From an uncultured Ignavibacteriales bacterium (GTDB taxonomy: Bacteria > Zixibacteria > MSB-5A5 > GN15 > FEB-12), in the NCBI GenBank assembly GCA_964397415.1, contig CAYNIJ010000010.1, positions 22,021 to 86,020 of the forward strand: a stretch of 64,000 nt of DNA, written 5' to 3'. The notes beneath the pieces were generated by a model that saw only the letters and a list, made by a program, of their open reading frames with translations, was not told the origin of the DNA and did no database searches. The position numbers and the translations under genes are program-made. Numbering within the stretch: the stretch's first letter is position 1; every line of letters starts with the position of its first letter. Below are positions 26,727-45,617 of the stretch, piece by piece.

Positions 26727-29565
<2,839 letters not shown>

Positions 29566-30324: not shown

Positions 30325-30326
30325 TC

Positions 30327-31112: not shown

Positions 31113-31127
31113 TAGAGCGGATTCTCC

Positions 31128-32573
31128 CTAAAATGGCGTGTCGGTACCTTTGACAGGATCGACATCGGCCGGCAACTCCCTGTAGCCGGCGGCAAGATTC
31201 TCAAACCGCGCGAATTCTTTGACAAAGGCCATCCGGGCGGTACCGGTCGGGCCGTTTCGTTGTTTGGCGACAATGACCTCAGCCGTACCGATCTTATCGG
31301 CGTTTTTCGGGTCGCGACGTTCATCGTCGTTAAGATAATACTCCGGCCGGTACACGAACATCACAACATCGGCATCCTGCTCGATCGCTCCGGATTCGCG
31401 AAGGTCCGCCAACTGAGGGCGTTTGTCACCGCCGCGATGCTCCACCATACGGGAGAGCTGCGAACATGCGATCACCGGAAGTTGAAGCTCTTTCGCGAGC
31501 GCCTTCATGCTTCGTGAAATGACCGAGATCTCCTGCTGCCGGTTCTCAGAACGCCCGGATGCGTGCATCATCTGGATATAGTCGACGATGATCAATGAAA
31601 GATGCGGGAATTGGGCCTTGAGTCGTCGCGCTTTGGCGCGCATCTGGAGTGAAGTCAGTGTCGCGGAGTCGTCGATGAAAATATCCATCTGCGAGAGTGT
31701 ATTACCATGTTTGGTCAACTGGGCAAACTCAGCATCTGTCAATTTGCGCGAGCGAAGTTTCTGCTGACTGATCTTGGCCCTCCCGCAGAGGATACGGAGC
31801 GCCAATTGCTCCTTGGACATTTCCACCGAAAAGATGGCAACACCCTTCTTGGTCTTCTCATTGGACGCGATACTCTCGGCGATATTGACCGCTAGTGCGG
31901 ACTTTCCCATCGATGGGCGACCGGCGACCACCACAAAGTCGCCATTGTGCAGACCTTGAGTGAGCATATCAAGTTCGGTATAGCCGGTCATCACTCCCTC
32001 AAGCGCGCCATCACCGGATTGGAATCGCTCTATCTGTTCGAAAGAGTGATGTACAAGCTGCTTGAGCGGCACAAACCCCTGACGCAAACGACTCTCGGAA
32101 ATGCGGAAGATATTTGCCTCGGCAGCATCCAAAAGATCTTCGACCGGGTTTTCCGAGACATACGCTGAGCGCGATATCTCATTTGAGGTCTCGATCAGTC
32201 GGCGAAGCAGTGATTTGTCCAGGACGATTGTCGCATACGCAAGCACGTTGGCAGTCGATGCCACAGACTCAGCAAGCTCCACCAGATAGACGCGGCCACC
32301 CGCCTTTTCCAGTTGATTGTCCCGTTGCATCATATTGGCGACAGTTGTAATATCGCACGGCTCAGAGCGGTTATATAGCTCCAGCATGGACTTGTAGATA
32401 ATGCGATGGCGAGGCGAATAGAAATGCTCCTCGGAGTCGATCACTCCGATGACCTGGTGAATCGCTTCGTCATCCTTGAGGATCGAACCTAACAGCGCTT
32501 GTTCGGCGTCGCCGGACTGCGGCGGCTGAAGGTGTTGAACATCTTTATCTGATTTGGCTTGAAATGCCATCAC
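31128..32573 (-). CDS. dnaB: Replicative DNA helicase
   Basis: 481 aa. PPQSGDAEQALLGSIL N-terminus, Walker A GRPSMGKSA, IVDYIQ. No intein-sized insertion. Confidence 0.95.
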   Translation of the reverse strand: MMAFQAKSDKDVQHLQPPQSGDAEQALLGSILKDDEAIHQVIGVIDSEEHFYSPRHRIIYKSMLELYNRSEPCDITTVANMMQRDNQLEKAGGRVYLVELAESVASTANVLAYATIVLDKSLLRRLIETSNEISRSAYVSENPVEDLLDAAEANIFRISESRLRQGFVPLKQLVHHSFEQIERFQSGDGALEGVMTGYTELDMLTQGLHNGDFVVVAGRPSMGKSALAVNIAESIASNEKTKKGVAIFSVEMSKEQLALRILCGRAKISQQKLRSRKLTDAEFAQLTKHGNTLSQMDIFIDDSATLTSLQMRAKARRLKAQFPHLSLIIVDYIQMMHASGRSENRQQEISVISRSMKALAKELQLPVIACSQLSRMVEHRGGDKRPQLADLRESGAIEQDADVVMFVYRPEYYLNDDERRDPKNADKIGTAEVIVAKQRNGPTGTARMAFVKEFARFENLAAGYRELPADVDPVKGTDTPF

Positions 32574-32589
32574 TCCACCAATTCACTTT

Positions 32590-33393
32590 CTAAACCTGGT
32601 CGTACTTGGCTTTCAGCATCTTCATGTCTTCCCATGTCTCCTTCTTGTATTCGGGGAAACGAAGGAGCGCGGCCGGGTGATAGGTCACCAGCATCGGTAT
32701 CCCATGATAGTTGAGCCAGGATTTGCGCAATTTACTCAGGGGCGTGGTTGTCTGCAAGAGCGATTGTACCGCGATGCGCCCCAGACAGCAGATCAGTTTC
32801 GGCTGAATTAGCCTGATCTGTTCATGCAGATACGGGAGACACGCGGCGACCTCATCGGGCTGGGGGTCACGATTGTTCGGCGGCCGGCACTTGAGGATAT
32901 TCGCTATATAGACTTCCTGCCTCGACAGTTGGATGGCTGCAAGGATCTTGTCCAGCAATTTCCCCGCGGCTCCCACGAAAGGCTCCCCTTGAAGGTCTTC
33001 TTGCGCCCCCGGCGCCTCGCCAATAAAGAGCAATTTTGCCTTCGGATTGCCCACACCATAAACAAACTTAGTGCGAGTCTTGCCGAGCGGGCATTTCAGG
33101 CAATTGCAGATTGCGGCATTGTGCTCGTCGGTAGACCCAAAGGTCGCGTCACCGAGAGGGATGGTAATATCATCACGGACAACTGTCTTGGCCATCCTGG
33201 CGGTTTCCTCCATAGCGAACAACGTTGGTTCCGTGGTTGCGGTCGGGCTCACCGCTTCGGCTGCCTGTGGCGAGACGTCGGCGGCCACCTTTCGCTCGAC
33301 ATGATTGAGCACAATTTCGTCAGTGCCCAGTTCGATCTGCGCCTTCAGCGCACGACGCACCAGGTCGAGTATGTCCTGGGGATTGTCAGCCAC
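32590..33393 (-). CDS. Family 4 uracil-DNA glycosylase
   Basis: 267 aa. GEAPGAQEDLQGEPFVGAAG and HPAALLR motifs, Cys ligands (CNCLKCPL). About 90-aa N-terminal extension. Confidence 0.85.
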   Translation of the reverse strand: MADNPQDILDLVRRALKAQIELGTDEIVLNHVERKVAADVSPQAAEAVSPTATTEPTLFAMEETARMAKTVVRDDITIPLGDATFGSTDEHNAAICNCLKCPLGKTRTKFVYGVGNPKAKLLFIGEAPGAQEDLQGEPFVGAAGKLLDKILAAIQLSRQEVYIANILKCRPPNNRDPQPDEVAACLPYLHEQIRLIQPKLICCLGRIAVQSLLQTTTPLSKLRKSWLNYHGIPMLVTYHPAALLRFPEYKKETWEDMKMLKAKYDQV

Positions 33394-34636
33394 GCGATCT
33401 GGATTTTGCGCCGGACGGGCGGCTGGACATCAATTGAGAAATTCGTTCGATAAGGCGAGCAGCCACTTCGGACTTCGAGAGGAGCGGCCAAGTCTCCGCG
33501 ATCATATCGGGGGCAAGAACCATCACCTGGTTGGTGTCATGGTCAAATCCGGCACCTTCGGAACGCGGATTGTTCACCAATATAAGGTCGAGTTGTTTTT
33601 CGGTCAGTTTCTTTCGGCCATTCACTTCCGCGTTCTCGGTCTCCAGCGCAAATCCGACCACGATCTGACCTTCTCTGCGCTTCCCCGCAACTTGCTTCAG
33701 GATATCAGTTGTTGGGGTCAAGGTCAGGTGCAGCGCGTCTTTGGTTCGCTTGATCTTCTGCTCGGCTGAAACCTCTGGTGTGAAATCCGAAGGTGCCGCA
33801 GCCATGATGAGGCAGTCAGCCTCTGCGAACTCCTTCTTCACTGCATCAGCCATCTGAGCAGTCGTTTCGACACTGATAGAGCGAAGGCCAGCCGGGTGGG
33901 TCAATTGAGTCGGGCCAGAGATAAGCGTCACTTCAGCGCCCGCTTCACGCGCGGCTTCAGCGATCGCATACCCCATTTTGCCGGATGACCTGTTCGAGAT
34001 GAAGCGAACCGGGTCGATAGCTTCACGGCACGGACCAGCCGTAACAAGAACCTTCTTCCCCGCCAGTTTGCCGGATCGTCGACGAGCCTCTGCCTCAAAA
34101 AACAGCTTCACCTGCTCGAATATCTCCAATGGCTCCAACATTCGACCAATCCCAAACTGCTTTTCCGCCATCTCTCCCTCGGCTGGTCCCACAAAATGGT
34201 AGCCTAACTCAAGTAGTGAACCGACATTTCGCTGCGTGATAGGATTGTGCCACATCCCGGGATTCATTGCCGGCGCGATTATCACCGGTGCGGGAGAGGC
34301 ACAGACAATCGTGGTCAGCAGGTCATCAGAAACACCGGATGCGGTCTTTCCGATAAAATTCGCCGTTGCCGGCGCAATTACCATCAGGTCGGCCCAACGG
34401 GCCAGTTCAATATGCCGGGTCGCTATCTCATCCCGTTCGGCCCACATATCGGTATAGACAGGATTGCGGGAAGTTGCCGCAAGCGTCATCGGAGTGACAA
34501 ACTTGGTGGCGTTGGCCGTCATAATAACGCGGACCTCGGCCCCCGCCTTTATGAGCGAGCGAACCAGATACGGCACCTTATAACAGGCAATGCCGCCGGT
34601 CATCCCGACGATTATCTTTTTGCCGGAAAGTGACAT
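33386..34636 (-). CDS. coaBC: Bifunctional phosphopantothenoylcysteine decarboxylase / synthetase
   Basis: 416 aa. GGIACYK flavoprotein N-domain and [10 protein letters not shown] CoaB domain. Confidence 0.92.
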
Positions 34637-34637
34637 C

Positions 34638-35114
34638 TCAGTTGATCGTTAACGTTGGGTCGATCTTCGGATCAAGCAAAGCCAGCGATTCCATCTCGCT
34701 GAACTCATTGAACAGAACCGCCGCGGTCACCAGTTTGACCTGCTCGAGGTCGACTCGCTGCGGCGATACCGAAAACGCCCGCTCCAGCACCGTCTCAAAC
34801 TGCTCGTCATCGATGACCGAAAGCGCGATCAGTTTCACCAAGAAACCGTACGCTTCGGGGCTCAATTGAAGCCGCTCATATTGGGTCAAGACTCGGTTTG
34901 AGTGATGCTCTTCGGGGAACTGGGCAAAGAATGGTTCGTCGTTATGTTCGAATCGGTCGATAACCCAGGAATAGGCGGAAGATATCTCGCTGTCGGAATA
35001 CCCCATGCTCTGGAGGTCCGGCGTGAGGTCATCCATGCTTGGAAGTATCCCCTGGTGCTCCCGCATATGATCTATCAGATAAACAACAATTTCCAGAACT
35101 CGGTTACCCATCAT
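34638..35114 (-). CDS. smg: Smg (DUF494) family protein
   Basis: 158 aa, acidic. N-terminus MMGNRVLEIVVYLIDHM and overall layout resemble Smg. Family call from memory. Confidence 0.6.
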   Translation of the reverse strand: MMGNRVLEIVVYLIDHMREHQGILPSMDDLTPDLQSMGYSDSEISSAYSWVIDRFEHNDEPFFAQFPEEHHSNRVLTQYERLQLSPEAYGFLVKLIALSVIDDEQFETVLERAFSVSPQRVDLEQVKLVTAAVLFNEFSEMESLALLDPKIDPTLTIN

Positions 35115-35141
35115 CCCTTCTCGTCCACCCCCACATCGGGT

Positions 35142-35170
35142 AAGATAGATGTCCAGGGCTGGGCGGTCAA
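35142..35170 (-). promoter_or_regulatory. Putative sigma70-type promoter TTGACC-17-TATCTT for smg-coaBC-udg-dnaB...
   Basis: ggtcaa at 35165-35170, aagata at 35142-35147, in the 95-nt gap after the yceI stop. Confidence 0.45.
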
Positions 35171-35209
35171 CGGTAGAGTATCGTGGACGCAGAGAAATGG
35201 TGTGAAGAC

Positions 35210-35842
35210 CTATTCCTTGGCGGGCCAGTCAGGGAGCGAAATATCGGTTGCCGGTAAGTTGTTGTAGCCGGAGAAAATGCACTCAACCTCGATCGTTTCC
35301 GCCAATTTGAGGAACAGTGCTTTTGGGCGCGGAATATCGTACTCGTCAAGAATGATCTGGAATCGGGTACGAATTGACACCTTTTCTCCCCCTTGCTCGG
35401 ACGTTATGCTAACCTCAATTGGCGCGGAAAGCTGGCGTTTGACGCCATGGATATAGAACCAGCCGCGCACTTCTCCGCTGTCCTTTGCACCGGCATGAAG
35501 CGGTTCAAGCCCGGTCACTCCTTTCAATTCAAAATAGGCATACGGGAATTTCTCCGTATTCAGATGCCGGTCGCGCATGTGTTCATCCCGCGTGTCAATC
35601 CCGGTCTTGAGAGTTCGCAGGTCCACGCGCAGGAGCCCAGAGGCATTTGAGTCAGGTCTGGCCGGATCGAACGAAATTGAGCCGTCAATCGCCGCGCTTT
35701 TCCCCTCAATGAACTCCAATTTCGCGGTGGAACGGAAGTAAACCGAGTCCTGCCTTGCTGCCGGATTCAATTGGAAATCGGCCGCAGATATCGGCGCCGC
35801 GAAGAGAAAGAGTAGCGTACATACACTGGAAAACTTGTTCAT
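35210..35842 (-). CDS. yceI: YceI-like periplasmic polyisoprenoid/quinone-binding protein
   Basis: ATG at 35842 (GAGGT SD) gives the signal peptide MNKFSSVCTLLFLFAAPISA. YceI-like pattern SVYFRSTAKLEFIEGKS...GSISFD...LRTLKTGIDTRDEHMR. Starts 13 nt after the stop of the upstream gene. Confidence 0.75.
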   Translation of the reverse strand: MNKFSSVCTLLFLFAAPISAADFQLNPAARQDSVYFRSTAKLEFIEGKSAAIDGSISFDPARPDSNASGLLRVDLRTLKTGIDTRDEHMRDRHLNTEKFPYAYFELKGVTGLEPLHAGAKDSGEVRGWFYIHGVKRQLSAPIEVSITSEQGGEKVSIRTRFQIILDEYDIPRPKALFLKLAETIEVECIFSGYNNLPATDISLPDWPAKE

Positions 35843-35855
35843 GGGACACCTCTGG

Positions 35856-36917
35856 TTAATTGTCGGGCGCGCCGGCATTGATCCAGTCGCGGAGCTTGTT
35901 CAGGTCAGTCGTCGAGATGTATGGTCCACCCGGAGGCATTCGTGAGCCGAATTGAGGCGAGGTTGTGGCCTTGAAATAAAGGCTACTAGTGCCGGCACTT
36001 CCCGGCACAACGGCTGCGCCGTGGCCGCCACTCGCATGAAACACCGCATGATAGGTAGCTGAGCCGAGATTGAGCCCTCCCTCGGCCGAACTTCCGCCGT
36101 GACACCCGGTAATCGCGCACCTCGCCAACAGTAGTGGCTGGATATGGCTCGCGAAACTGGGGGCATCGTCATCCAGAATCGTACAGGTCGCCATACTATC
36201 CAAAAACATCCCGTTAGACAGCGCGGTCAGCCTGATGGTGAACTCCTCAATCGGCTCAAAAACTGCATCCTCGGATGTGACAATAGACAACACTGCGGAG
36301 AGCTGACCCGGCGGAATTGTATCTCTCCCGCTTGCCATAATGAAATCAGCAGGTGCCGTCGCGGACCCCGCCACCAGACTGAAGTCAAAGATAACCGGTA
36401 AGATGCCGGCCTTATTGAGTTCGACCGTGACCTGAGCCATCTCACCCTCAACAGCCGATGTGTCTCGTATGGTGACAAACGGCACCCCGTCGTCGTCCAG
36501 TATGACACATGTGGCCTCAGCTTGTGTAATGACGGCGTTTGTGGCGCTGAGTATCTTAATCGTGACCTCTTCCAGGGGCTCAATCTGGTCATCTTGAAGA
36601 AACTCCAGCCCGACATGAATATGATTCTCCGCATGACCGCTGCCATCGGATGCTTCTATCGTCACCGTGTCGGTTCGTGCCTCAAAATCCTGACCCGCGG
36701 TAGCGGTGATCCCTTCAAAGGTATAGATGATAGTCACCGGACGAGGAGCCTCAAAACTGAGTTCAAACTCGCACTCGGCGATGTCACCCTCGTTGGTCGT
36801 GTCGCTGTGAACCGTCAGTTCCGGAACTGGTATCTCTGGCAAACTTCCAAAATCTGTACATCCTGATACCAGGACGACCACGACGATTGCGAATATCAGC
36901 AGCGGTTTCATTTTCAT
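35856..36917 (-). CDS. Lipoprotein with two Calx-beta domains and a C-terminal Planctomycete-cytochrome-C (PSCyt1)-like domain
   Basis: 353 aa. Lipobox LVSGC. Two Calx-beta modules ending ATCVILDDDG and ATCTILDDDA. C-terminus HIQPLLLARCAITGCHGG...GGLNLGS...VVPGSAGTSSLY...RMPPGGPYISTTDLNKLRDWINAGAP. CAITGCH verified at nt 36099-36119. Confidence 0.7.
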   Translation of the reverse strand: MKMKPLLIFAIVVVVLVSGCTDFGSLPEIPVPELTVHSDTTNEGDIAECEFELSFEAPRPVTIIYTFEGITATAGQDFEARTDTVTIEASDGSGHAENHIHVGLEFLQDDQIEPLEEVTIKILSATNAVITQAEATCVILDDDGVPFVTIRDTSAVEGEMAQVTVELNKAGILPVIFDFSLVAGSATAPADFIMASGRDTIPPGQLSAVLSIVTSEDAVFEPIEEFTIRLTALSNGMFLDSMATCTILDDDAPSFASHIQPLLLARCAITGCHGGSSAEGGLNLGSATYHAVFHASGGHGAAVVPGSAGTSSLYFKATTSPQFGSRMPPGGPYISTTDLNKLRDWINAGAPDN

Positions 36918-36920
36918 TCC

Positions 36921-37955
36921 TCAATAGCCGACATGGAATTGCACGAAAAACAGGTCCTCGCCATCCAGAAAACCTCGCGTGTACTTCGTGTACGATGGGC
37001 GGATCTGCACAAACGGCATGGGATAAAAATCGATGGAGAAACGAAGATATTCGTCCACTCCGGTCTCCAGTCGCCGGTCAGGGTCGAAGAAATTGTACTC
37101 GCCGACTAGATAGAAACCGTATTCGATTCTCCCGACAAGACTCGCGTACATAGCGATCTGATCATTTCCCTTCCCTACGACATCCATCTCTCCCATCGCG
37201 GTGAAGCGATCATACGCCAGCCCTCCATACAGCGATTTTGCATGCGGGAAGAGGCCGAAGTCATCTGGTCCGATCTCATCCGTAAAACGGTAGGAGCTCC
37301 CAACCAGGTAGCTGAACGCGCCCAATGTCCCCGGCCGATAGAGATTGAGATTGATGACCTTCTGCTCGTTTGGATTGAACGCCTCGGCTATGAGATTTAC
37401 TCCAGCAAATTCACCCGACAGGGATACGCCATCCAAATAGACTTCAGCGCCATTCCCCGTCCTTTCCCGGACAAATGACTTGTGATCCTCCACATGCAGG
37501 CCGAACGAAGGCGTGAAGGTCCCAAACTTGGCGGAGTATTTATTATCATCGAAGGTCATAAGCGCATAGTTCTCAGTGACGCCATTTGCGCCTATGCGCA
37601 TATGATAGAACATATTTCGAAGCGGCTCGGCCGTGACGAACCCATCCGTCTGCATCCGGAAGATCCTGCCATCATCTATTGCCAGATAACGGACATCGAA
37701 CCCGAGAATCAGTAATTCTCCAACCCGAGGTTTCCGATACTGCGACGCCAGCCACTTCTTGGTGCTTGGTAGTGTCAGTTCGTTGAAAGCAGTGGTAAAG
37801 TTACCGTACTCCGTACGGGCACCTCCCCCTGCCGGCGAAAAGTGGCAGTTCTTACAAGGCTCAGCATGCTCCACCGACAGTCGCGGATATGCGAGGAGTG
37901 AAGCCGCACAGATAAGAAGCAACCCAACCACAGGGATGGCGATTTGACGATTCAT
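36921..37955 (-). CDS. Outer-membrane beta-barrel with an N-terminal CXXCH heme motif (Cyc2-like fused cytochrome-porin candidate)
   Basis: 344 aa. Signal peptide MNRQIAIPVVGLLLICAASLLAYP. CKNCH at residues 34-38 (nt 37842-37856, verified TGT AAG AAC TGC CAC). About 300 aa of amphipathic strands. C-terminus FFVQFHVGY with alternating hydrophobics and a terminal aromatic. Confidence 0.6.
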   Translation of the reverse strand: MNRQIAIPVVGLLLICAASLLAYPRLSVEHAEPCKNCHFSPAGGGARTEYGNFTTAFNELTLPSTKKWLASQYRKPRVGELLILGFDVRYLAIDDGRIFRMQTDGFVTAEPLRNMFYHMRIGANGVTENYALMTFDDNKYSAKFGTFTPSFGLHVEDHKSFVRERTGNGAEVYLDGVSLSGEFAGVNLIAEAFNPNEQKVINLNLYRPGTLGAFSYLVGSSYRFTDEIGPDDFGLFPHAKSLYGGLAYDRFTAMGEMDVVGKGNDQIAMYASLVGRIEYGFYLVGEYNFFDPDRRLETGVDEYLRFSIDFYPMPFVQIRPSYTKYTRGFLDGEDLFFVQFHVGY

Positions 37956-38047
37956 GACTGCGCTTTCTTCTAACGGTCACACGGAATGAGATAACTGAGC
38001 CAGCCGCCCGCCCGGCTGAGTCTGGCCGGCCTTGTTGTACAGAGAGT

Positions 38048-38075
38048 CCGCAGGCTGCTATCGTACAGCCTGCGG
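38048..38075 (-). terminator. Strong hairpin 39 nt downstream of purH (terminator-like, no U-tract)
   Basis: ccgcaggctg ctatcgta cagcctgcgg: perfect 10-bp GC-rich stem with an 8-nt loop. A second 6-bp hairpin (cagccg/cggctg) lies at 38001-38018. Confidence 0.4.
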
Positions 38076-38113
38076 TCAGATTTCAAGTGAATTCAATAGG
38101 TCGACCGGGACGG

Positions 38114-39694
38114 TCAATGTTTGAAATGACGGATTCCGGTGAAGACCATGGCGATACCGAGTTTGTCGGCGGTGGCAATGACCTCTTCATCCCCTTTGGA
38201 CCCGCCAGGTTGTATGACTGCCGTCACCCCGGCTTGCGCGGCGACCTCAAGCCCGTCTGGCATCGGGAAGAACGCGTCTGAAGCCAGGACTGCCCCCTTG
38301 GCCCGGTCTCCCGCGCGCTTCACCGCCAGGAAGGATGAATCGACCCGCGACGTCTGCCCCATCCCGATACCGACCGTCGCCAGGTCCTTAGCGATAACAA
38401 TGGCATTCGATTTGGTATGCTTTACCACGCTCCATGCAAACAGGAGCGATTGGAGTTGTTGCGGGGTCGGCGCTACTTTGGTCACAGTCTGCAGCGATTT
38501 TGGGTCAAGCTTGTGGTCATCAGCCGTCTGCGCCAAAAGCCCGCCCTGGATAAACCGGTAATTGGCCAGCCCCTGTTTACGTCCATGCGCTATGTCTGGG
38601 AGAGCCAGGAGTCGGCGTGTTTTCTTTTTCACCAGCAGTTCGAGCGCATCAGGCGCAAAGCCGGGCGCCAGCATGCATTCGACAAACGGAGTCTCGTGCA
38701 GCAGCCTGGCGGTCTCCATATCGACCATCTTATTAAGGCCGATTATCGAACCATATGCTGACAACGGATCAGACTCATATGCTCGGGCATATGCCTCGGC
38801 CAGGGTTTTCCCCTGTGCCGCGCCACACGGATTGGTATGCTTCAGGATGCAGGCGAATGGCTCCGAGAACTCGAGCAAAAGATCCAGGCAGGCATCCAGA
38901 TCACTGTAATTATTGTACGACAGCTCTTTACCCGCCAAAACTTCGGCATGAACTAACGTCGGCGCCGCGTACGTTGGATCTGAAAAGAGCGAAGCCTCTT
39001 GATGCGGGTTTTCGCCGTATCGAAGCGGCGATGCCTTGCGATACTCCATCTTCAGCACTTCGGGGAAATGCTCGGCCCGTTGTTGGATCGGAGCGGTACT
39101 GTCAAGAGCAAACCAGTTGGCCACAGCGCGATCATAGTCCGCGGTCAGAGCATAGGCGCGACCGGCGCACCGACGACGGAACTCAAACGACGTGGTCCCG
39201 TCATGCTTCTTCATCTCTTCCAGCAGTTCAGCGTAATCCGATGGATCCGCTATGACCGTCACGGAGTCGTGGTTTTTCGCCGCCGCACGGATCATGGACG
39301 GTCCACCGATATCGATGTTCTCGATTATCTCTTCCTCCGTAGCGTCCGGCTTGGCGACCGTCTGCTTGAATGGATAGAGATTGACTACGACCAGATCGAT
39401 CCCGCGATAATCGGCCGACTGCATTTGCTCGACATCCTCCACCACATGGCGGCGGTACAATATCCCGGCATGGATCTTCGGGTGGAGCGTTTTCACCCGC
39501 CCGCCCAGTATCTCCGGCGAACCGGTAAAAGTAGAGACCGAGATCGCGTGGATCCCCGCGTCGCGCAGGGTCTTCAGTGTTCCCCCGGTCGAGAGTATCT
39601 CGACACCCATTTTATCCAACGCGAGTCCGAGGTCGACAATACCGGTTTTGTCGGAGACCGATATCAATGCCCGTTTGATCTTGATGGTATCCAT
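38114..39694 (-). CDS. purH: Bifunctional AICAR transformylase / IMP cyclohydrolase
   Basis: 526 aa. KRALISVSDKTG N-terminus and GIRHFKH C-terminus. Confidence 0.95.
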   Translation of the reverse strand: MDTIKIKRALISVSDKTGIVDLGLALDKMGVEILSTGGTLKTLRDAGIHAISVSTFTGSPEILGGRVKTLHPKIHAGILYRRHVVEDVEQMQSADYRGIDLVVVNLYPFKQTVAKPDATEEEIIENIDIGGPSMIRAAAKNHDSVTVIADPSDYAELLEEMKKHDGTTSFEFRRRCAGRAYALTADYDRAVANWFALDSTAPIQQRAEHFPEVLKMEYRKASPLRYGENPHQEASLFSDPTYAAPTLVHAEVLAGKELSYNNYSDLDACLDLLLEFSEPFACILKHTNPCGAAQGKTLAEAYARAYESDPLSAYGSIIGLNKMVDMETARLLHETPFVECMLAPGFAPDALELLVKKKTRRLLALPDIAHGRKQGLANYRFIQGGLLAQTADDHKLDPKSLQTVTKVAPTPQQLQSLLFAWSVVKHTKSNAIVIAKDLATVGIGMGQTSRVDSSFLAVKRAGDRAKGAVLASDAFFPMPDGLEVAAQAGVTAVIQPGGSKGDEEVIATADKLGIAMVFTGIRHFKH

Positions 39695-39701
39695 GGATTG
39701 C

Positions 39702-40613
39702 TTACTTGCCTGTCAAAAGTCGTTGTGCTTCGCGATACCGTGAGGCCGATGCGTTGACCACTTCATCCGGAAGCACCGGCGCCGGTGGCTTCTTGTCCCA
39801 GCCGGTTGATTCGAGATAGTCACGGATCGGCTGTTTATCAAAGGATGGCTGGCTCTTCCCGATCTCATATTTGTCGACCGGCCAGAAACGGCTGGAGTCT
39901 GGGGATAATACTTCATCGATGAGGATAAACTTGCTGTTCTTGTATCCGAACTCGAATTTGGTGTCGGCGATGATGATCCCCTTGGTCAGGGCGTAATCCG
40001 CTGCCTTCTGGTACACGGCGAGCGACTTGTCGCGGCACAACTCAGCCGTATCACGGCCGACCATCTCAACCATCTGCTCAAAACTGATATTTTCGTCGTG
40101 GCCGTCATCGTTCTTTGAAGACGGCGTGAAAAGAGTCGTAGGGAGCTTCTCGGATTCTCTCAATGCTGCAGGGAACTCGAATCCATGCACAGAATTCGAA
40201 CCCGACTTGCGCGCGGTCTGCAGCTCCTTCCACATCGAGCCGGAGATATATCCACGGACGATGCACTCGGCATCGATCCGATCCGCCTTGACCACGATCA
40301 TCGAACGCCCCTCAAGCTGATCGCGATAGGCGCGGAGCTTGACCGGGTACTCGTCGACATTGGCCGTCACGAGATGGTTGTCCACGACATCCTTGAGGAA
40401 ATCGAACCAGAACAGCGAGGTCTGCGTCAGCACTCGTCCCTTCCCCGGAATGCCATTCGGCATGACGACATCAAATGCGGATATACGATCCGACGCGATG
40501 AACAGCAGTGTCTCCCCGAGGTCATAAATGTCGCGGACTTTACCGCGACGGATCAGCGGATACTCTTTGATATCCGTGGTCAGCACGACACGGTCGGTAG
40601 CGGCATTACTCAT
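39702..40613 (-). CDS. purC: SAICAR synthetase (long form)
   Basis: 303 aa. GKVRDIYD and SDRISAFD motifs. Confidence 0.92.
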   Translation of the reverse strand: MSNAATDRVVLTTDIKEYPLIRRGKVRDIYDLGETLLFIASDRISAFDVVMPNGIPGKGRVLTQTSLFWFDFLKDVVDNHLVTANVDEYPVKLRAYRDQLEGRSMIVVKADRIDAECIVRGYISGSMWKELQTARKSGSNSVHGFEFPAALRESEKLPTTLFTPSSKNDDGHDENISFEQMVEMVGRDTAELCRDKSLAVYQKAADYALTKGIIIADTKFEFGYKNSKFILIDEVLSPDSSRFWPVDKYEIGKSQPSFDKQPIRDYLESTGWDKKPPAPVLPDEVVNASASRYREAQRLLTGK

Positions 40614-41214
40614 GATTGCTATATTCTCCTGTAATGAGTTTTTGCAGAGCGATTGGATAAATGCGGTGTTCTTCGGTCAACACACGCGCGGCAAGCGTGT
40701 CTGGTGTATCGTTTGGAAGCACCGGCACTCGAACCTGTTCTAGTATTTTCCCATGATCGTAGATCTCGTCGGCCAGATGCACCGTACAGCCGGACTCTTT
40801 CTCTTTGGCCGCCAAGACGGCTTCGTGTACAAAATGTCCGTACATACCGGGTCCCCCGTATTTCGGAAGTAACCCGGGGTGAATATTCACGACTCGATTG
40901 TGAAATGCTTTAAGCACTTCAATCGGCATCAATTTCAGATAGCCGGCCATCACCACGTAATCGATCGCGCGCGCGCGAAGCTGACTTACCAATTCTGTTC
41001 CAGCTTGCTCGAGTGAGTCGTACTTCTTCGCGCTGAACACCCAGGTTTCTATACCCTGGTCGGACGCACGCTGCAGTCCCAATGCTTTGGACGTATTCGA
41101 CACCGCCCATACTACTTTCGCGGCAAGTTCGCCGCGGTCGGTCGCATCGATGATCGCCTGCATATCAGAGCCGCGCCCTGAGATAAAGACAGCCAATCGC
41201 GCCGGAAGTGGCAT
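40606..41214 (-). CDS. purN: Phosphoribosylglycinamide formyltransferase
   Basis: 202 aa. VFISGRGSDMQAII and NIHPGLLPKYGG. The ATG overlaps the gatB TAA (TAATG). Confidence 0.9.
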   Translation of the reverse strand: MPLPARLAVFISGRGSDMQAIIDATDRGELAAKVVWAVSNTSKALGLQRASDQGIETWVFSAKKYDSLEQAGTELVSQLRARAIDYVVMAGYLKLMPIEVLKAFHNRVVNIHPGLLPKYGGPGMYGHFVHEAVLAAKEKESGCTVHLADEIYDHGKILEQVRVPVLPNDTPDTLAARVLTEEHRIYPIALQKLITGEYSNHE

Positions 41215-42662
41215 TAACTGTCCAGCCTCTCTCTCAGCAAGCGATTGACCGCCTCCGGATTGGCTTGCCCCTTGGTTGCCTTCATAACCTGACCAACAAA
41301 GAAGCCGAACACATTGGTTTTTCCGGATCGATATTGCGCGACACTGTCCGGACTGGAAGTCAGCACTTGCTCGACTATCGGGATGATCGCAGAATCATCG
41401 GAGATCTGCACTAGTCCCTTTTCCTTGATGATGTCCGACGGATGCTTGCCAGTCTCCACCATTTCCGCGAACACGGTCTTGGCGATCTTGCCTGAGATCT
41501 CACCTGAAGCGATCTTGTTCACCAGTTCGGCCAGCATTGCCGGACGTACCTTGGACTCGGTGATATCTTCGCCGGACTTGTTTATGACGCCCAGTAATTC
41601 TACTTGAAGCCAGTTGGCGGCACCGATCCCGTCACTGGTGTGCCGCAACATCTCTTCGTAGTATTCCGCCAACGCGCGAGAGTCGGTCAGTACATGGGCA
41701 TCGTATTCCCGGATCCCGAACTGCTCAACAAACCGCTTTGCTTTAGCCTCCGCAAGCTCGGGCAAGTCACGACGGGTCTCCTCTATCCATTCATCGGAGA
41801 CGACCAGATTGACCAGATCCGGCTCAGGAAAGTAGCGGTAATCGTGCGACTCCTCTTTTCCGCGCATCGCCTCCGCGACCTGCTTTTTCTCGTTCCACAG
41901 GAGCGTCTCCTGCTCCACTTGACCGCCTGACTTGATCAGTTTGATCTGACGGTCTATCTCATACTTGAGCGCCCGCTCAACTCCCTTGAAGGAGTTCATA
42001 TTTTTGAGTTCCGTGCGGGTACCGAACTTCTCTTGTCCCGCCGGGCGAACAGAGACATTGGCGTCGCACCGCAAATGCCCTTTCTCCATATCACCCGAAC
42101 AGACGCCCAGATACTGCACGATCTGCTTCAGTTTTGTCAAATAGCCGTAGGCTTCTTCTGGAGAGCGGATATCAGCATGCGACACTATTTCCATGAGCGG
42201 AGAACCGCAGCGATTCAGGTCGACTTTGGTGTGGGAGCCGCCATCTTCGGGGTGCATCAGTTTGCCGGCATCCTCTTCAAGGTGAATGCGAATCAGGCGA
42301 ACAGCCTTCTCATCACCAGACTCAAGCCTGAATCGGATCTCCCCCCCCTCGCCTATCGGACGGTCAAACTGCGAAATCTGGTAGCCTTTCGGAAGGTCGG
42401 GATAAAAGTAGTTCTTACGGGCAAAGACCGATCGATTGCGCACAGTGCCACCAATTGCGAGGATCATCTTCATAGCGAACTCAGCCGCCCGCTTATTCAT
42501 TACCGGCAACGCACCAGGAAGACCGAGACAAACCGGGCAAGTTCGGCTGTTCGGTTCTGCGCCGTATTCCACTTTGCAGGAACAGAATATCTTCGATTCG
42601 GTCTGAAGTTGTGCGTGAACCTCGAGACCGATAACCGGCTCGAAGCCCTCGTAGATCGCCAC
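41214..42662 (-). CDS. gatB: Asp/Glu-tRNA amidotransferase subunit B
   Basis: 482 aa. GLEVHAQL, CPVCLGLPGALP, C-terminal YqeY-like tail. GTG start with AGGAGGA SD. Confidence 0.93.
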   Translation of the reverse strand: MAIYEGFEPVIGLEVHAQLQTESKIFCSCKVEYGAEPNSRTCPVCLGLPGALPVMNKRAAEFAMKMILAIGGTVRNRSVFARKNYFYPDLPKGYQISQFDRPIGEGGEIRFRLESGDEKAVRLIRIHLEEDAGKLMHPEDGGSHTKVDLNRCGSPLMEIVSHADIRSPEEAYGYLTKLKQIVQYLGVCSGDMEKGHLRCDANVSVRPAGQEKFGTRTELKNMNSFKGVERALKYEIDRQIKLIKSGGQVEQETLLWNEKKQVAEAMRGKEESHDYRYFPEPDLVNLVVSDEWIEETRRDLPELAEAKAKRFVEQFGIREYDAHVLTDSRALAEYYEEMLRHTSDGIGAANWLQVELLGVINKSGEDITESKVRPAMLAELVNKIASGEISGKIAKTVFAEMVETGKHPSDIIKEKGLVQISDDSAIIPIVEQVLTSSPDSVAQYRSGKTNVFGFFVGQVMKATKGQANPEAVNRLLRERLDS

Positions 42663-42688
42663 GCGTTGCTATCCTCCTGAAAGCGGGA

Positions 42689-42716
42689 AATATAGGGGGC
42701 CCCGACCCAAGGTCAA
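42689..42716 (-). promoter_or_regulatory. Putative sigma70-type promoter TTGACC-16-TATATT for gatB-purNCH
   Basis: ggtcaa at 42711-42716, aatata at 42689-42694. The -10 is embedded in CCCCCTATATTTCCC. Confidence 0.5.
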
Positions 42717-42744
42717 GCGATTCCGGCAGCCACCCAACCCGATA

Positions 42745-43377
42745 TCAGAACCAGACTTGGAGCATGTGAAGCTCCTCACGCAACTGCGCTGCCGAACGGA
42801 ATACGATGAAGTGCATACCGGCCTTCCGCACAGCATCGCCATATGCCGTCGTATCATCAATGAACACGATCTCTTCCGGACGCATACAGCATTGCAACAC
42901 CAGCTTTTCGAAGATGGCCGACTCCGGCTTCCGAGCGCCAACCTCATAGGACATCATCACGAAGTCAAACCCCTCTCGCAGGTTGAGGCGCTTCTGCAGA
43001 TCATGCTCCCATGCGCAATTGTTGGAAAGCATCCCCAGGAGAAATCTCCCTTTAAGTTGATCCTTGATTCGGAGGGAGTCTGGCATGGGATGGAACATGC
43101 CGACAAACATCTCGTGCAGATCCTCATCAGCTTGACTGATTCCACCTGCTTGGCGAAATGCGGCCCAATACGTCGGTTCGTCAATCTCTCCCCGCTCAAA
43201 CTCGGCGATACGGGATTCCCACGCCGCCTCCGCCCGTTCAACGGAGATGCCGAGATGTGAGGAGAAGTGCTCCAGCGATTGACGGTAATTGTAGGTGTAG
43301 AGAACACCCCCGAAGTCGAACACTACTGCTCGAACAGGAGTCGAAAGTCGACTGGAAGCTAGCTGTGGTCCAGGCAT
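42745..43377 (-). CDS. HAD-superfamily hydrolase (subfamily IA-like)
   Basis: 210 aa. Motif I VVFDFGGVL and motif IV-like FIDDT. Substrate unknown. Confidence 0.7.
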   Translation of the reverse strand: MPGPQLASSRLSTPVRAVVFDFGGVLYTYNYRQSLEHFSSHLGISVERAEAAWESRIAEFERGEIDEPTYWAAFRQAGGISQADEDLHEMFVGMFHPMPDSLRIKDQLKGRFLLGMLSNNCAWEHDLQKRLNLREGFDFVMMSYEVGARKPESAIFEKLVLQCCMRPEEIVFIDDTTAYGDAVRKAGMHFIVFRSAAQLREELHMLQVWF

Positions 43378-44147: not shown

Positions 44148-44149
44148 GA

Positions 44150-45583: not shown

Positions 45584-45589
45584 GAGGGG

Positions 45590-45617
45590 AATATAGGGGC
45601 GCACAAGGTGTAGGCAA
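45590..45617 (-). promoter_or_regulatory. Putative sigma70-type promoter TTGCCT-16-TATATT, with the -10 box 6 nt from the gatA ATG (leaderless geometry)
   Basis: aggcaa at 45612-45617, aatata at 45590-45595, then cccctc, then ATG (45583). The -10 is embedded in CCCCTATATTCCCC. Confidence 0.45.

What the first reader, a model, noticed from the sequence alone, without database searches (positions are those of the whole stretch)
36921..37955. Compact Cyc2-like fused monoheme cytochrome-porin (signal peptide, CKNCH, beta-barrel)
Seen in sequence:
- A 344-aa protein with a cleavable-looking signal peptide.
- A single canonical c-type heme motif, CKNCH, at residues 34-38 (nt 37842-37856; I re-translated the DNA to confirm it).
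- About 300 residues of amphipathic beta-strand pattern ending FFVQFHVGY, the alternating-hydrophobic, terminal-aromatic signature of outer-membrane barrels.

Established: Cyc2 of Acidithiobacillus and the Zetaproteobacteria has exactly this layout, with one N-terminal CXXCH fused to a porin, and acts as an outer-membrane Fe(II) oxidase.

Inference: this is a small and possibly divergent member of that architecture, or an independent invention of it, in an FCB-type genome. That would imply extracellular or periplasmic-face electron exchange.
Basis: partly seen in the sequence, partly recalled or inferred. Interest (0 to 1): 0.7.

Follow-up and report, generated by a model that had tools for sequence, protein, structure and literature searches.

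The report
New family of haem-bearing outer-membrane porin
The gene encodes an outer-membrane pore with a single haem group attached near its front end. It belongs to a large, unnamed family that resembles the iron-oxidising protein Cyc2 in layout but is not Cyc2, and it is usually encoded beside a small lipoprotein cytochrome, which suggests a simple route for moving electrons across the outer membrane.

Summary
ORF 36921-37955 (-) encodes 344 aa: a signal peptide, one CKNCH (residues 34-38) and a barrel ending FFVQFHVGY.

- **Structure:** AlphaFold2 (pLDDT 83.7, pTM 0.81) gives 16 strands with very short external loops. The best PDB fold matches are 16-stranded porins, including OprP.
- **Conservation:** C34, C37 and H38 are present in all 37 full-length homologues and in 100 of 100 members of a wider superfamily. 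That superfamily has 415 clusters at 50% identity, spans many phyla, carries only "hypothetical" names and has no Pfam or NCBIfam model.
- **Not Cyc2 by published criteria:** it lacks PXFAR[QK][TY] and PXL, is shorter than 365 aa, and scores 0.3 bits against a surrogate Cyc2 HMM. The haem module is remotely Cyc2-like (P-x-F/L-A/S-x3-G/A-x2-CxxCH, same spacing). hhalign gives 91-96% probability; the score is 54.7 against 27±6 for shuffles.
- **Partner:** the next gene on the same strand encodes a lipoprotein with a PSCyt1-type c-cytochrome domain. The same pairing holds in 34 of 48 scorable loci from other phyla. In Zixibacteria a YceI gene follows.

Best reading: a two-cytochrome electron conduit in the outer membrane. 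Its substrate and direction are unknown, and Fe(II) oxidation is unproven. Haem attachment was not tested.

The parts
36921..37955 (-). Gene for the fused monohaem cytochrome-porin (344 aa; stop codon at 36921-36923)
   Evidence: ORF and translation. 59 close homologues. AlphaFold2 model with pLDDT 83.7 and pTM 0.81.
37890..37955 (-). Signal peptide, residues 1-22 (MNRQIAIPVVGLLLICAASLLA)
   Evidence: Sequence inspection. The conserved mature N-terminus starts at the P-R-L/F motif across the family.
37716..37889 (-). Haem module, residues 23-80: YPRLSVEH-AEP-CKNCH-FSPAGGGARTEYGN followed by two short helices
   Evidence: Conserved motif. Profile match to the Cyc2 haem module. The same module occurs as a stand-alone mini-cytochrome elsewhere. 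pLDDT is only 55-76 here.
37842..37856 (-). CKNCH, the c-type haem attachment motif (residues 34-38)
   Evidence: Invariant in homologues.
36924..37715 (-). 16-stranded beta-barrel, residues 81-344, ending in the aromatic C-terminal signature FHVGY
   Evidence: DSSP strands of the model. Foldseek matches to OmpM1, OprP (2o4v), OmpT/U and Omp32, E about 1e-9 to 1e-7, TM 0.51-0.61.
37437..37514 (-). Long loop between strands 5 and 6 (residues 148-173, TPSFGLHVEDHKSFVRERTGNGAEVY). It sits where the L3 constriction loop of classical porins lies and is the best conserved stretch of the barrel (P149, G152, D157, H158, R163).
   Evidence: Strand map. Invariant and near-invariant columns. The L3 role is inferred from the general topology of 16-strand porins.
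35856..36917 (-). Partner gene, 3 nt downstream: a lipoprotein (lipobox LVSG|C20) with two Calx-beta domains and a C-terminal PSCyt1-type c-cytochrome domain (residues about 262-353)
   Evidence: Pfam Calx-beta 44.5 bits and PSCyt1 31.2 bits against a cutoff of 22. Orthologues in the same position. An adjacent same-strand partner in 34 of 48 scorable loci of other phyla.
36099..36119 (-). CAITGCH in the partner (residues 267-273): an expanded CX4CH haem motif. M327 in the invariant MP of SRMP is the likely axial ligand.
   Evidence: Alignment A5: distant orthologues have CXXCH, the column of the first Cys is kept and two residues are inserted. Coordinates.
35210..35878 (-). YceI-like (polyisoprenoid/quinone-binding lipocalin) gene, third in the operon. 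The true start is probably M13 at nt 35842, which gives a signal peptide.
   Evidence: Pfam YceI 62.6 bits against a cutoff of 23.7. Same position in Zixibacterial relatives and in some distant loci (L015, L038, L085, L088, L096, L103). Start site.
37956..38113 (-). 158-nt gap between purH and the porin gene. This is the only sizeable gap upstream of the three-gene cluster and the presumed promoter region.
   Evidence: Gene spacing. The consensus promoter/terminator scan was no better than shuffles, so this is inference only.

Best explanation
The gene encodes an outer-membrane protein in which a mini c-type cytochrome of about 55 residues, with one haem on CKNCH at the mature N-terminus, is fused to a compact 16-stranded porin barrel. 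It belongs to a large, so far unnamed family, marked by 'P-R-F/L-A ... CxxCH-x-N/S-P-x-G-G-G-x-R'. This family is separate from Cyc2 but shares its layout and a remotely similar haem module. The gene is co-transcribed with an outer-membrane-anchored lipoprotein that carries a monohaem PSCyt1-type cytochrome c, and in this lineage with a periplasmic YceI lipocalin. Proposed mechanism: the haem sits at or inside the periplasmic mouth of the barrel and exchanges electrons through the pore with a small redox-active solute or a surface partner. The lipoprotein cytochrome relays those electrons to or from the periplasmic chain. YceI may bring in an isoprenoid quinone. Shown by computation: the architecture, the conservation, the barrel, the partner linkage and the remote likeness to Cyc2. 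Inferred: haem attachment, the position of the haem, and the direction and substrate of electron flow. Fe(II) oxidation is one candidate among several.
For: Architecture: ORF, signal peptide and CKNCH; 16 strands with pLDDT 83.7 and pTM 0.81; top PDB fold hits are 16-strand porins, including OprP, the template reported for Cyc2. Conservation: C, C and H are invariant in 37 of 37 and 100 of 100 sequences. Family size: 415 clusters at 50% identity with E<=1e-3 among 1.84 billion representatives. Link to Cyc2: hhalign of the superfamily against Cyc2 profiles gives 95.7-96.2% probability and E 2e-9 to 9e-9, or 91% and 1e-6 without the signal peptide; score 54.7 against 27.4±5.6 (max 44.6) for 60 column shuffles with CXXCH held fixed, and 22 against an unrelated cytochrome domain. 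Redox partner: PSCyt1 cytochrome lipoprotein 3 nt downstream, kept in Zixibacteria at 50-79% identity, in a relative at 30% identity, and adjacent on the same strand in 34 of 48 scorable loci from Gamma- and Betaproteobacteria, Ignavibacteriota, Marinimicrobia, Bacteroidota and Acidobacteriota. Other members sit next to a dihaem cytochrome c and Rieske/cytochrome b genes, or next to a cupredoxin and a small cytochrome c. The haem module also exists as a free-standing mini-cytochrome. Precedent for YceI working with cytochromes: BcnA/LcoA (PMC9113575) and Cbp2D/E (PMC8981238).
Against: There is no experimental or transcript evidence; only DNA runs hold the locus. Haem attachment is inferred from the motif alone. 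The haem region has the lowest model confidence, and coordinates could not be inspected, so the position of the haem is unknown. No cytochrome c maturation gene and no other CXXCH ORF of 100 aa or more lies in the window. The barrel shows no detectable sequence homology to the Cyc2 barrel (E 0.06), so the shared layout could be convergent. The neighbourhood in Zixibacteria is housekeeping (purH, coaBC, dnaB, mlaEF), not respiratory. Many carriers are ordinary aerobic heterotrophs (Cellvibrio, Roseateles, Aliiglaciecola), which argues against lithotrophic iron oxidation as the general role. The partner here has CX4CH rather than CXXCH. 14 of 48 scorable loci lack an adjacent partner.
Confidence: 0.6

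Rival explanations
1. It is a true, if shortened, Cyc2-type Fe(II) oxidase. Fe2+ enters the pore, is oxidised by the haem, and the electrons feed the respiratory chain for energy.
For: Same layout as Cyc2: signal peptide, one N-terminal CXXCH and a 16-strand OprP-like barrel. Remote but specific likeness of the haem module. A downstream cytochrome c recalls the cyc2-cyc1 pairing, which I also saw in the Cyc2-like plasmid loci. The source is a rock or sediment metagenome. Zixibacteria have been proposed as iron cyclers (PMC9769843).
Against: It fails the published Cyc2 criteria: no PXFAR[QK][TY], no PXL, 344 aa against a minimum of 365. Best blastp E is 0.012 even in a 42-sequence database, and it scores 0.3 bits on a Cyc2 HMM. 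The barrel is not detectably homologous. The family is common in heterotrophs not known to oxidise iron. No oxidase, rusticyanin or cytochrome c4 genes are nearby.
Confidence: 0.12
2. It is part of an envelope-protection or lipid-redox system. YceI carries a quinone or a peroxidised lipid, and the two outer-membrane cytochromes reduce it, by analogy with the YceI-family lipocalin BcnA and cytochrome b561 LcoA.
For: YceI is the third gene of the operon and holds that position across Zixibacteria and in several distant loci. BcnA/LcoA shows a YceI-cytochrome partnership against lipid peroxyl radicals (PMC9113575). The locus is a conserved core-genome position, as expected for a housekeeping function, with mlaEF a few genes away.
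Against: YceI is adjacent in only 4 of 78 strong loci of the wider family by the automated count; L038, L070 and L103 escaped that count. YceI is therefore not a core partner. The known system uses an inner-membrane cytochrome b561, not c-type outer-membrane cytochromes. There is no evidence for lipid binding by the porin.
Confidence: 0.12
3. It is a metal-acquisition channel: a porin whose haem reduces or oxidises iron, or another metal, at the pore to aid uptake. It is not a respiratory conduit.
For: It is found in many non-lithotrophic heterotrophs. The Ignavibacterium album locus lies next to a TonB-dependent receptor. One member lies next to a ferritin-family gene. A conserved acidic/histidine motif (D157-H158) sits in the L3-like loop.
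Against: These contexts are single cases, not a pattern. No Fur box or iron-transport genes lie in the window operon. The only neighbour kept across phyla is a cytochrome, not a transporter.
Confidence: 0.1
4. It is an ordinary diffusion porin, and the CXXCH is a metal-binding or disulfide motif, not a haem site.
For: Haem was not demonstrated. The barrel resembles general porins. No maturation genes are in the window.
Against: C-x-x-C-H, histidine included, is invariant over more than 130 sequences at down to 20% identity. The same module occurs as free mini-cytochromes and fused to a class-I cytochrome c domain. It resembles the haem module of Cyc2, which is known to bind haem. The gene is linked to a cytochrome c partner.
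Confidence: 0.05

Closest known systems
Cyc2 (fused cytochrome-porin Fe(II) oxidase of Acidithiobacillus, Zetaproteobacteria and Gallionellaceae; clusters 1-3 of McAllister 2020 and Keffer 2021)
   Same: Signal peptide, a single CXXCH a few residues into the mature protein, and a 16-strand barrel that resembles OprP. The haem module has the same spacing: A-x-P-x-F/L-A/S-x-x-x-G/A-x-x-C-x-x-C-H (hhalign 91-96%). The gene is often followed by a c-type cytochrome gene.
   Different: No PXFAR[QK][TY] and no PXL; NPxGGGxR follows the haem instead. It is 344 aa (family median about 370) against about 440-480. External loops are very short. The barrel has no detectable sequence homology. The partner is a PSCyt1-type lipoprotein cytochrome, not Cyc1/cytochrome c4. 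Carriers are mostly not iron oxidisers. Activity is untested.
Cyt572 of Leptospirillum (counted in Cyc2 cluster 3)
   Same: An outer-membrane monohaem cytochrome with a porin-like barrel (PMC10654088; PMC7005843).
   Different: No sequence comparison could be made here because no Cyt572 sequence was at hand. Cyt572 comes from an acidophile and has shown Fe(II) oxidase activity.
MtrCAB, PioAB/MtoAB and Pcc porin-cytochrome complexes
   Same: An outer-membrane barrel plus cytochromes, with a lipoprotein cytochrome as partner (MtrC and OmcB are lipoproteins). The function is trans-outer-membrane electron transfer.
   Different: Those systems use a 26-strand barrel that sheathes a separate decahaem (or 8-12-haem) protein. 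Here the barrel has 16 strands, one haem is fused to it and one haem is on the partner, so a continuous haem wire across the membrane is not possible.
Phosphate/anion porins OprP/OprO and general 16-strand porins (OmpM1, OmpU/T, Omp32)
   Same: Fold: 16 strands, a long loop after strand 5, and an aromatic C-terminus (Foldseek E about 1e-9, TM 0.51-0.61).
   Different: 8-14% identity. No Pfam Porin_O_P hit for the window protein; two relatives give sub-threshold hits. Those porins have no N-terminal haem module and have much longer external loops.
Cbp2D/Cbp2E of Cellvibrio japonicus, and BcnA/LcoA
   Same: YceI-type isoprenoid/quinone-binding domains working together with cytochromes in the cell envelope or outside the cell.
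   Different: Different proteins and domain orders. Cbp2D is secreted and carries CBM2. LcoA is an inner-membrane cytochrome b561. Neither involves a porin.

Membership tests
Cyc2 (sensu Keffer et al. 2021 / FeGenie) | N-terminal signal peptide | tested here: met
   Judged by inspection of MNRQIAIPVVGLLLICAASLLA|YP; no SignalP tool was available.
Cyc2 (sensu Keffer et al. 2021 / FeGenie) | Single CXXCH near the N-terminus | tested here: met
   CKNCH at residues 34-38 is the only CXXCH in the protein, and it is conserved.
Cyc2 (sensu Keffer et al. 2021 / FeGenie) | PXFAR[Q/K][T/Y] motif just upstream of CXXCH; sequences lacking it were removed from the published tree | tested here: not met
   The window has PRLSVEH. 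0 of 37 clade members and 0 of 100 superfamily members match, against 29 of 37 in my Cyc2 set. The partial pattern P-x-[FLYM]-[AS] is present in 33 of 37.
Cyc2 (sensu Keffer et al. 2021 / FeGenie) | PXL motif about 4 residues after CXXCH | tested here: not met
   The window has CH-FS-P-A-G-G-G. 0 of 37 and 0 of 100 match, against 36 of 37 in the Cyc2 set.
Cyc2 (sensu Keffer et al. 2021 / FeGenie) | Length of at least 365 aa (375 in the FeGenie paper) | tested here: not met
   344 aa. All 37 clade members are shorter than 365 aa.
Cyc2 (sensu Keffer et al. 2021 / FeGenie) | Sequence similarity to Cyc2 (blastp E<=1e-5, or FeGenie cluster HMMs) | tested here: not met
   Best blastp E is 0.012 in a 42-sequence Cyc2 database. 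The protein scores 0.3 bits on an HMM built from 37 Cyc2-like proteins. My Cyc2 set is proteobacterial, of the 'FARQT' type.
Cyc2 (sensu Keffer et al. 2021 / FeGenie) | 16-strand porin barrel structurally like OprO/OprP | tested here: met
   16 strands. OprP 2o4v is rank 2, E 1.2e-9, TMq 0.61.
Cyc2 (sensu Keffer et al. 2021 / FeGenie) | Fe(II) oxidase activity | not testable with these tools
   Needs expression with Ccm and an Fe(II)-dependent haem reduction assay.
Unnamed 'PRF-CxxCH-NPxGGG' cytochrome-porin superfamily (defined here) | Full-length homology to members from other phyla | tested here: met
   phmmer E 1e-22 to 1e-10 over residues about 10-340 against proteins of 350-400 aa, in a library of 1.84 billion.
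Unnamed 'PRF-CxxCH-NPxGGG' cytochrome-porin superfamily (defined here) | Motif P-x-[FLYM]-[AS]-x3-x-x2-CxxCH-xx-P-x-G-x-G at the mature N-terminus | tested here: met
   YPRLSVEHAEPCKNCHFSPAGGG. 33-35 of 37 in the clade and 76-85 of 100 in the superfamily match.
Unnamed 'PRF-CxxCH-NPxGGG' cytochrome-porin superfamily (defined here) | Adjacent same-strand gene for a PSCyt1-type cytochrome c, usually a lipoprotein | tested here: met
   Window gene 35856-36917. 34 of 48 scorable loci show the pairing.
MtrB/PioB/Pcc-type porin-cytochrome complexes | Barrel of about 26 strands enclosing a separate multihaem cytochrome | tested here: not met
   16 strands and one fused haem. There is no multihaem gene in the window.
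Pfam Porin_O_P (PF07396) and other porin families | Score above the family gathering threshold | tested here: not met
   No Pfam or NCBIfam hit at E<=1. Relatives P0076 and P0126 give sub-threshold Porin_O_P hits of 17.9 and 14.1 bits against 20.9.
PSCyt1 (PF07635), for the partner protein | Score above gathering threshold, and a CXXCH | tested here: inconclusive
   31.2 bits against a cutoff of 22. The motif is CX4CH (CAITGCH) in this clade, where distant orthologues have CXXCH. The fold search of the domain model gave only weak cytochrome hits with E>0.2.
YceI (PF04264), for the third gene | Score above gathering threshold | tested here: met
   62.6 bits against a cutoff of 23.7.

The most novel reading that the evidence does not exclude
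The monohaem cytochrome-porin and its PSCyt1-type lipoprotein cytochrome form a previously unrecognised, minimal two-haem electron conduit across the outer membrane. It is widespread, from Zixibacteria, Ignavibacteriota, Marinimicrobia and Bacteroidota to Cellvibrio, Roseateles and Steroidobacteraceae, and it was built by fusing an autonomous mini-cytochrome module of about 45 residues, also found free-standing and in Cyc2, to a porin. In polysaccharide degraders such as Cellvibrio it could be the missing route that brings respiratory electrons to extracellular redox proteins, namely the YceI/cytochrome proteins Cbp2D/E and LPMOs. In sediment lineages it could serve exchange with iron or other redox-active solutes.
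Probability: 0.3. Interest if true: 0.85.

Novelty: new variant of a known kind. Interest (0 to 1): 0.62.

Why it matters
Fused cytochrome-porins are currently recognised almost only through Cyc2, and Cyc2 is used as the marker gene for microbial iron oxidation. This locus shows a second, large family with the same layout. The Cyc2 filters exclude it: motif, length of at least 365 aa, and blastp cut-off. No Pfam or NCBIfam model covers it. If it carries haem and passes electrons, surveys of extracellular electron transfer miss a whole class of outer-membrane conduits. Its steady pairing with a lipoprotein cytochrome gives a simple two-protein system that can be tested genetically in cultured carriers: Roseateles agri, Aliiglaciecola sp. 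M165, Melioribacter, Ignavibacterium album and Cellvibrio. The shared mini-cytochrome module also bears on how Cyc2-type proteins arose, by fusion of a small haem module to a porin.

Tried and rejected
1. Pfam, NCBIfam and PDB sequence searches of the protein gave nothing, and NCBIfam gave nothing for distant members.
2. I looked for printed Cyc2 sequences or cluster-specific motifs in paper supplements and found none. A literature search for the NPxGGG motif found nothing relevant. Searches for a prior description of such a family in Zixibacteria, Ignavibacteria or Cellvibrio found none; this does not prove that none exists.
3. I obtained bona fide Cyc2-like proteins by tblastn of a motif recalled from memory against plasmids. 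I then used only the retrieved sequences, not the recalled one.
4. Barrel-only profile comparison with Cyc2 gave no signal, so homology of the barrels is not claimed.
6. The promoter/terminator scan was no better than shuffles.
7. The search for RNA runs found only DNA metagenomes.
8. The last protein search, on the partner domain, was weakly sensitive and gave 8 hits. The resulting model (pLDDT 73.9) gave only weak fold matches: hydrazine synthase haem domain, FoxE and cytochrome c551, all with E>0.2.
9. Neighbouring genes in cultured carriers (ECF sigma with an RskA-type anti-sigma, an Alginate_exp-like barrel, a TonB receptor, a CHRD protein) showed no consistent functional theme.
10. M101 is nearly invariant, but I rejected it as the distal haem ligand because strand periodicity places it on the lipid-facing side. 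H341 (lumen-facing, at the periplasmic rim) and H158 (L3-like loop) remain candidates. This is inference only, because model coordinates could not be read.
Full report
**1. Observation**

The minus-strand ORF 36921-37955 starts with ATG and encodes 344 residues. The N-terminus MNRQIAIPVVGLLLICAASLLA|YP looks like a cleavable signal peptide. I judged this by eye because no SignalP tool was available. CKNCH is at residues 34-38, nt 37842-37856. The protein ends ...DLFFVQFHVGY.

This is the only one of 189 six-frame ORFs of 100 aa or more in the window that contains CXXCH. The window has 54.3% G+C and also encodes SprA (T9SS), SelB and many housekeeping genes. All named close homologues come from Zixibacteria MAGs, so 'FCB-type genome' holds.

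**2. Structure**

I ran AlphaFold2 on a 39-sequence alignment. The model has mean pLDDT 83.7 and pTM 0.81.
- It has sixteen strands between residues 82 and 343.
- External loops are very short (2-13 residues), apart from a 26-residue loop between strands 5 and 6 (residues 148-173). That is the position of the L3 constriction loop in classical porins.
- Residues 24-80, which carry the haem motif, form short helices and coil at lower confidence (pLDDT 55-76).
- Foldseek against the PDB returns 184 hits with E<=1e-3. The top ones are 16-stranded porins: OmpM1, OprP (2o4v; E 1.2e-9, TMq 0.61), OmpT/OmpU, Omp32 and the Rhodobacter blasticus porin.

OprP/OprO is the template family reported for the Cyc2 barrel (PMC8406198). 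The short loops explain why the protein is compact. I could not read the model coordinates, so barrel closure rests on the strand count, the pTM and the fold matches.

**3. Family**

There is no Pfam, NCBIfam or PDB sequence hit.
- A word-indexed search found 59 homologues of about 340-360 aa at 46-100% identity. All are 'hypothetical'. They come from Zixibacteria, with one labelled Nitrospinae.
- In the alignment, C34, C37 and H38 are present in every full-length sequence. The two rows lacking them are N-terminally truncated.
- A full HMMER scan of 1.84 billion cluster representatives found 415 clusters at E<=1e-3 and 88 at E<=1e-10.
- The distant members are 350-460 aa and 25-35% identical over the whole length. 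They carry ...A-L-P-R-F-A-x-x-x-G-x-x-C-x-x-C-H-V-N-P-x-G-G-G-x-R-N-x-Y-G... directly after the signal peptide.
Two give sub-threshold Porin_O_P hits. A few carry a second CXXCH upstream.
- In a 100-sequence alignment the invariant columns are C34, C37, H38, G43, G85 and G152. Near-invariant columns include P24, P41, R47, D87, R89, M101, P149, R163, D291 and H341.

The best conserved stretch of the barrel is the L3-like loop, P-x-[FY]-G-L-R-x-x-D-H-x-x-F-x-R. From strand periodicity, H341 faces the lumen three residues from the C-terminus, at the periplasmic rim. M101 lies on the lipid-facing side. Both placements are inference.

**4. Is it Cyc2?**

Keffer et al. 2021 define Cyc2 by a signal peptide, one CXXCH, an upstream AXPXFAR[Q/K][T/Y] motif, a downstream PXL motif, at least 365 aa, a 16-strand OprO/P-like barrel and blastp E<=1e-5. 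Sequences lacking PXFAR[QK][TY] were removed from their 1,593-sequence tree. FeGenie uses 375 aa.

To get real Cyc2 sequences, I ran tblastn of a motif-based query against plasmids. It hit Methylocystis, Ralstonia, Caballeronia, Ideonella, Acidiphilium and Acidithiobacillus ferrooxidans loci. In the annotated loci the Cyc2-like gene was followed by a c-type cytochrome gene. A profile search from five of these found more than 6,500 relatives.

| Test | Window protein or its family | Cyc2 set |
|---|---|---|
| P.FAR[QK][TY] | 0/37 clade, 0/100 superfamily | 29/37 |
| PXL | 0/37 clade, 0/100 superfamily | 36/37 |
| Median length | 345 (clade), 370 (superfamily) | 461 |

The window protein's best blastp E is 0.012 even in this 42-sequence database, and it scores 0.3 bits on the Cyc2 HMM. 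By the defining sequence criteria it is therefore not a Cyc2.

The haem modules nonetheless line up residue for residue:
- Cyc2: A-V-P-S-F-A-R-Q-T-G-Q-P-C-A-T-C-H
- Superfamily: A-L-P-R-F-A-A-R-N-G-A-P-C-A-L-C-H
- Window: A-Y-P-R-L-S-V-E-H-A-E-P-C-K-N-C-H

Profile-profile comparison of the superfamily against Cyc2 gives these results:
- 95.7-96.2% probability, E 2e-9 to 9e-9.
- 91% probability, E 1e-6, with the signal peptides removed.
- Control: shuffling the first 60 Cyc2 columns with C, C and H held fixed gives 27.4±5.6 (max 44.6 in 60 trials), against 54.7 for the real alignment. An unrelated cytochrome domain scores 22.
- The barrels alone give nothing (E 0.06).

My Cyc2 set is proteobacterial. 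Cluster-1 sequences and the FeGenie HMMs were not available.

**5. Operon and partners**

The next gene starts three nucleotides downstream on the same strand (35856-36917). It encodes a lipoprotein (LVSG|C) with two Calx-beta domains and a C-terminal PSCyt1 domain, 31.2 bits against a cutoff of 22. A YceI-family gene follows at 35210-35878 (62.6 bits). Its likely start at nt 35842 gives a signal peptide.

The order purH | cytochrome-porin | PSCyt1 lipoprotein | YceI | DUF494 | coaBC | udg | dnaB | mlaE | mlaF is kept in Zixibacterial contigs whose porin is 79%, 53% and 49% identical. The N-terminal part of the partner varies between zero and two Calx-beta domains, while the C-terminal cytochrome domain is constant.

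In this clade the partner has CX4CH (R-C-A-I-T-G-C-H-G-G). More distant orthologues have CXXCH, with the first Cys in the same alignment column. The MP of S-R-M-P is invariant, which suggests His/Met ligation. A relative at 30% identity from a different, high-G+C lineage has a divergently transcribed YceI gene followed by a lipoprotein with a canonical CVGCH PSCyt1-like domain.

**6. The pairing is general**

Local HMMs built from my alignments found a strong cytochrome-porin ORF in 78 of them.
- Of the 48 loci with at least 700 nt on both sides, 34 have a PSCyt1-like cytochrome gene immediately adjacent. Adjacent partner genes were always on the same strand and often overlapped the porin gene.
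- Most partners carry canonical CXXCH, and about half show a clear lipobox.
- Carriers include Gammaproteobacteria (Cellvibrio, Cellvibrionaceae, Aliiglaciecola sp. M165, Psychrosphaera, Marinimicrobium and many Steroidobacteraceae) and Betaproteobacteria (Roseateles agri R3-3, Rhodoferax).
- They also include Ignavibacteriota (Ignavibacterium album, Melioribacter), Chlorobiota, Bacteroidota, Marinimicrobia, Acidobacteriota, Myxococcota, Bdellovibrionota, Nitrospirota and Eisenbacteria.
- YceI is adjacent in only a handful of these loci (L038, L085, L088, L096, L103).

Other contexts vary:
- A Myxococcota member is followed by a dihaem cytochrome c and lies near Rieske/cytochrome b genes.
- Another member is preceded by a T9SS-tailed cupredoxin and followed by a small cytochrome c.
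- Two Gammaproteobacteria have an ECF sigma/anti-sigma pair and an Alginate_exp-like barrel nearby, and I. album has a TonB-dependent receptor.

The weak hits of the scan show that the haem module also exists alone. It occurs as mature mini-cytochromes of about 60 residues in Alphaproteobacteria. In Chloroflexota it is fused to a class-I cytochrome c domain.

**7. Mechanism**

Shown by computation:
- a secreted protein with an invariant c-type haem motif at its mature N-terminus, fused to a 16-strand barrel;
- membership of a large family;
- remote similarity of the haem module to that of Cyc2, a protein known to bind haem and oxidise Fe(II);
- a conserved, probably translationally coupled lipoprotein cytochrome c partner.

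Inferred: the haem sits at or in the periplasmic mouth of the barrel, as proposed for Cyc2. It exchanges electrons through the pore with a small solute or a surface partner, and the lipoprotein cytochrome relays them to or from the periplasm. One haem cannot span the membrane, so the redox substrate must enter the pore. The conserved D-H loop is a candidate binding or ligation site.

YceI proteins bind polyisoprenoids, including ubiquinone-8. They work with cytochromes in two known systems: BcnA/LcoA against lipid peroxyl radicals (PMC9113575) and Cbp2D/E of Cellvibrio (PMC8981238). The third gene therefore fits a redox role.

The direction and substrate of electron flow are open. Lithotrophic Fe(II) oxidation is possible for a rock or sediment Zixibacterium. 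It is unlikely to be the general function of the family, given carriers such as Cellvibrio and Roseateles. The housekeeping neighbourhood in Zixibacteria points the same way.

**8. Rivals**

The rivals are a true Cyc2-type iron oxidase, a YceI-centred envelope lipid-redox system, a metal-uptake channel, and a plain porin with a non-haem CXXCH. Each is weighed in its own section with the result that would refute it.

**9. Novelty**

The kind of protein, a fused monohaem cytochrome-porin, is known from Cyc2 and Cyt572. This family, its signature, its compact barrel and its conserved PSCyt1 lipoprotein partner are not covered by Pfam or NCBIfam. I found no description in the searched literature. 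I therefore rate it a new variant of a known kind.

**10. Limits**

- There is no experimental evidence for haem, localisation or activity.
- There are no transcript data.
- No maturation genes lie in the window.
- Model coordinates could not be inspected.
- The Cyc2 comparison set lacked cluster 1.

Noticed in passing
L019:2376-2678, L062:5302-5607, L031:2587-3195, L043:1188-1829, L052, L053, L109, L125: The N-terminal haem module (ALP[EA]YAxxxGxxCxxCHVNPGGGGPR) also occurs on its own. In Alphaproteobacteria MAGs it forms mature mini-cytochromes of about 60 residues. In Chloroflexota/Anaerolineales MAGs it is fused to a class-I cytochrome c domain in dihaem proteins of about 170 residues. This suggests an autonomous small cytochrome domain that was fused to porins.
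   Followed up: partly
window 36099-36119 (partner gene 35856-36917, minus strand): The PSCyt1-type cytochrome domain of the partner has CAITGCH (CX4CH) in the Zixibacterial clade, where distant orthologues have CXXCH. The first Cys is kept and two residues are inserted. Whether haem is still attached through two thioether bonds is unknown.
   Followed up: partly
window 35210-35878 (minus strand): The listed YceI ORF overlaps the partner gene by 23 nt. An internal start at M13 (nt 35842) gives a typical signal peptide (MNKFSSVCTLLFLFAAPISA|ADF) and a 13-nt gap, and is the likelier start.
   Followed up: partly
window about 26991-45604, compared with L001, L002, L004 and L096: A long block of gene order is kept across Zixibacteria at about 50% protein identity: gatA, hydrolases, gatB, purN, purC, purH, the three-gene cytochrome cluster, DUF494, coaBC, udg, dnaB, mlaE, mlaF, a RadA/Lon_C-like ATPase and tgt. 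This is unusually stable synteny for such divergence.
   Followed up: no
window 58828-63906 (minus strand): A 1692-aa ORF carries an SprA_N domain (the type IX secretion translocon), which fits an FCB-superphylum genome. SelB (54582-56486) indicates use of selenocysteine.
   Followed up: no
L054:3197-4542 and L069:1352-2649: In two Gammaproteobacteria (Aliiglaciecola sp. M165 and Cellvibrio sp. 79) the cytochrome-porin/partner pair lies near an ECF sigma factor, an RskA-type anti-sigma factor and an Alginate_exp-like outer-membrane barrel. This could be a regulatory unit.
   Followed up: partly
L070:4654-6060: One long ORF in an 'Acetofilamentum' MAG matched the YceI, PSCyt-C and cytochrome-porin models together. 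It could be a fusion of all three genes or a frameshifted assembly.
   Followed up: no
P0092, P0098, P0126, P0191 (superfamily members): Some distant members carry an N-terminal extension with a second CXXCH or a histidine-rich stretch ahead of the conserved haem module, so dihaem variants of the cytochrome-porin exist.
   Followed up: no
L005-L009 (plasmids of Methylocystis, Caballeronia, A. ferrooxidans, Ralstonia, Ideonella): Cyc2-like genes are plasmid- or megaplasmid-borne. In the four annotated loci the gene is followed by a c-type cytochrome gene. One locus has a HiPIP gene upstream, and the A. ferrooxidans copy abuts a transposase. NCBIfam has no model for them, and records call them 'cytochrome C' or 'hypothetical protein'.
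   Followed up: partly
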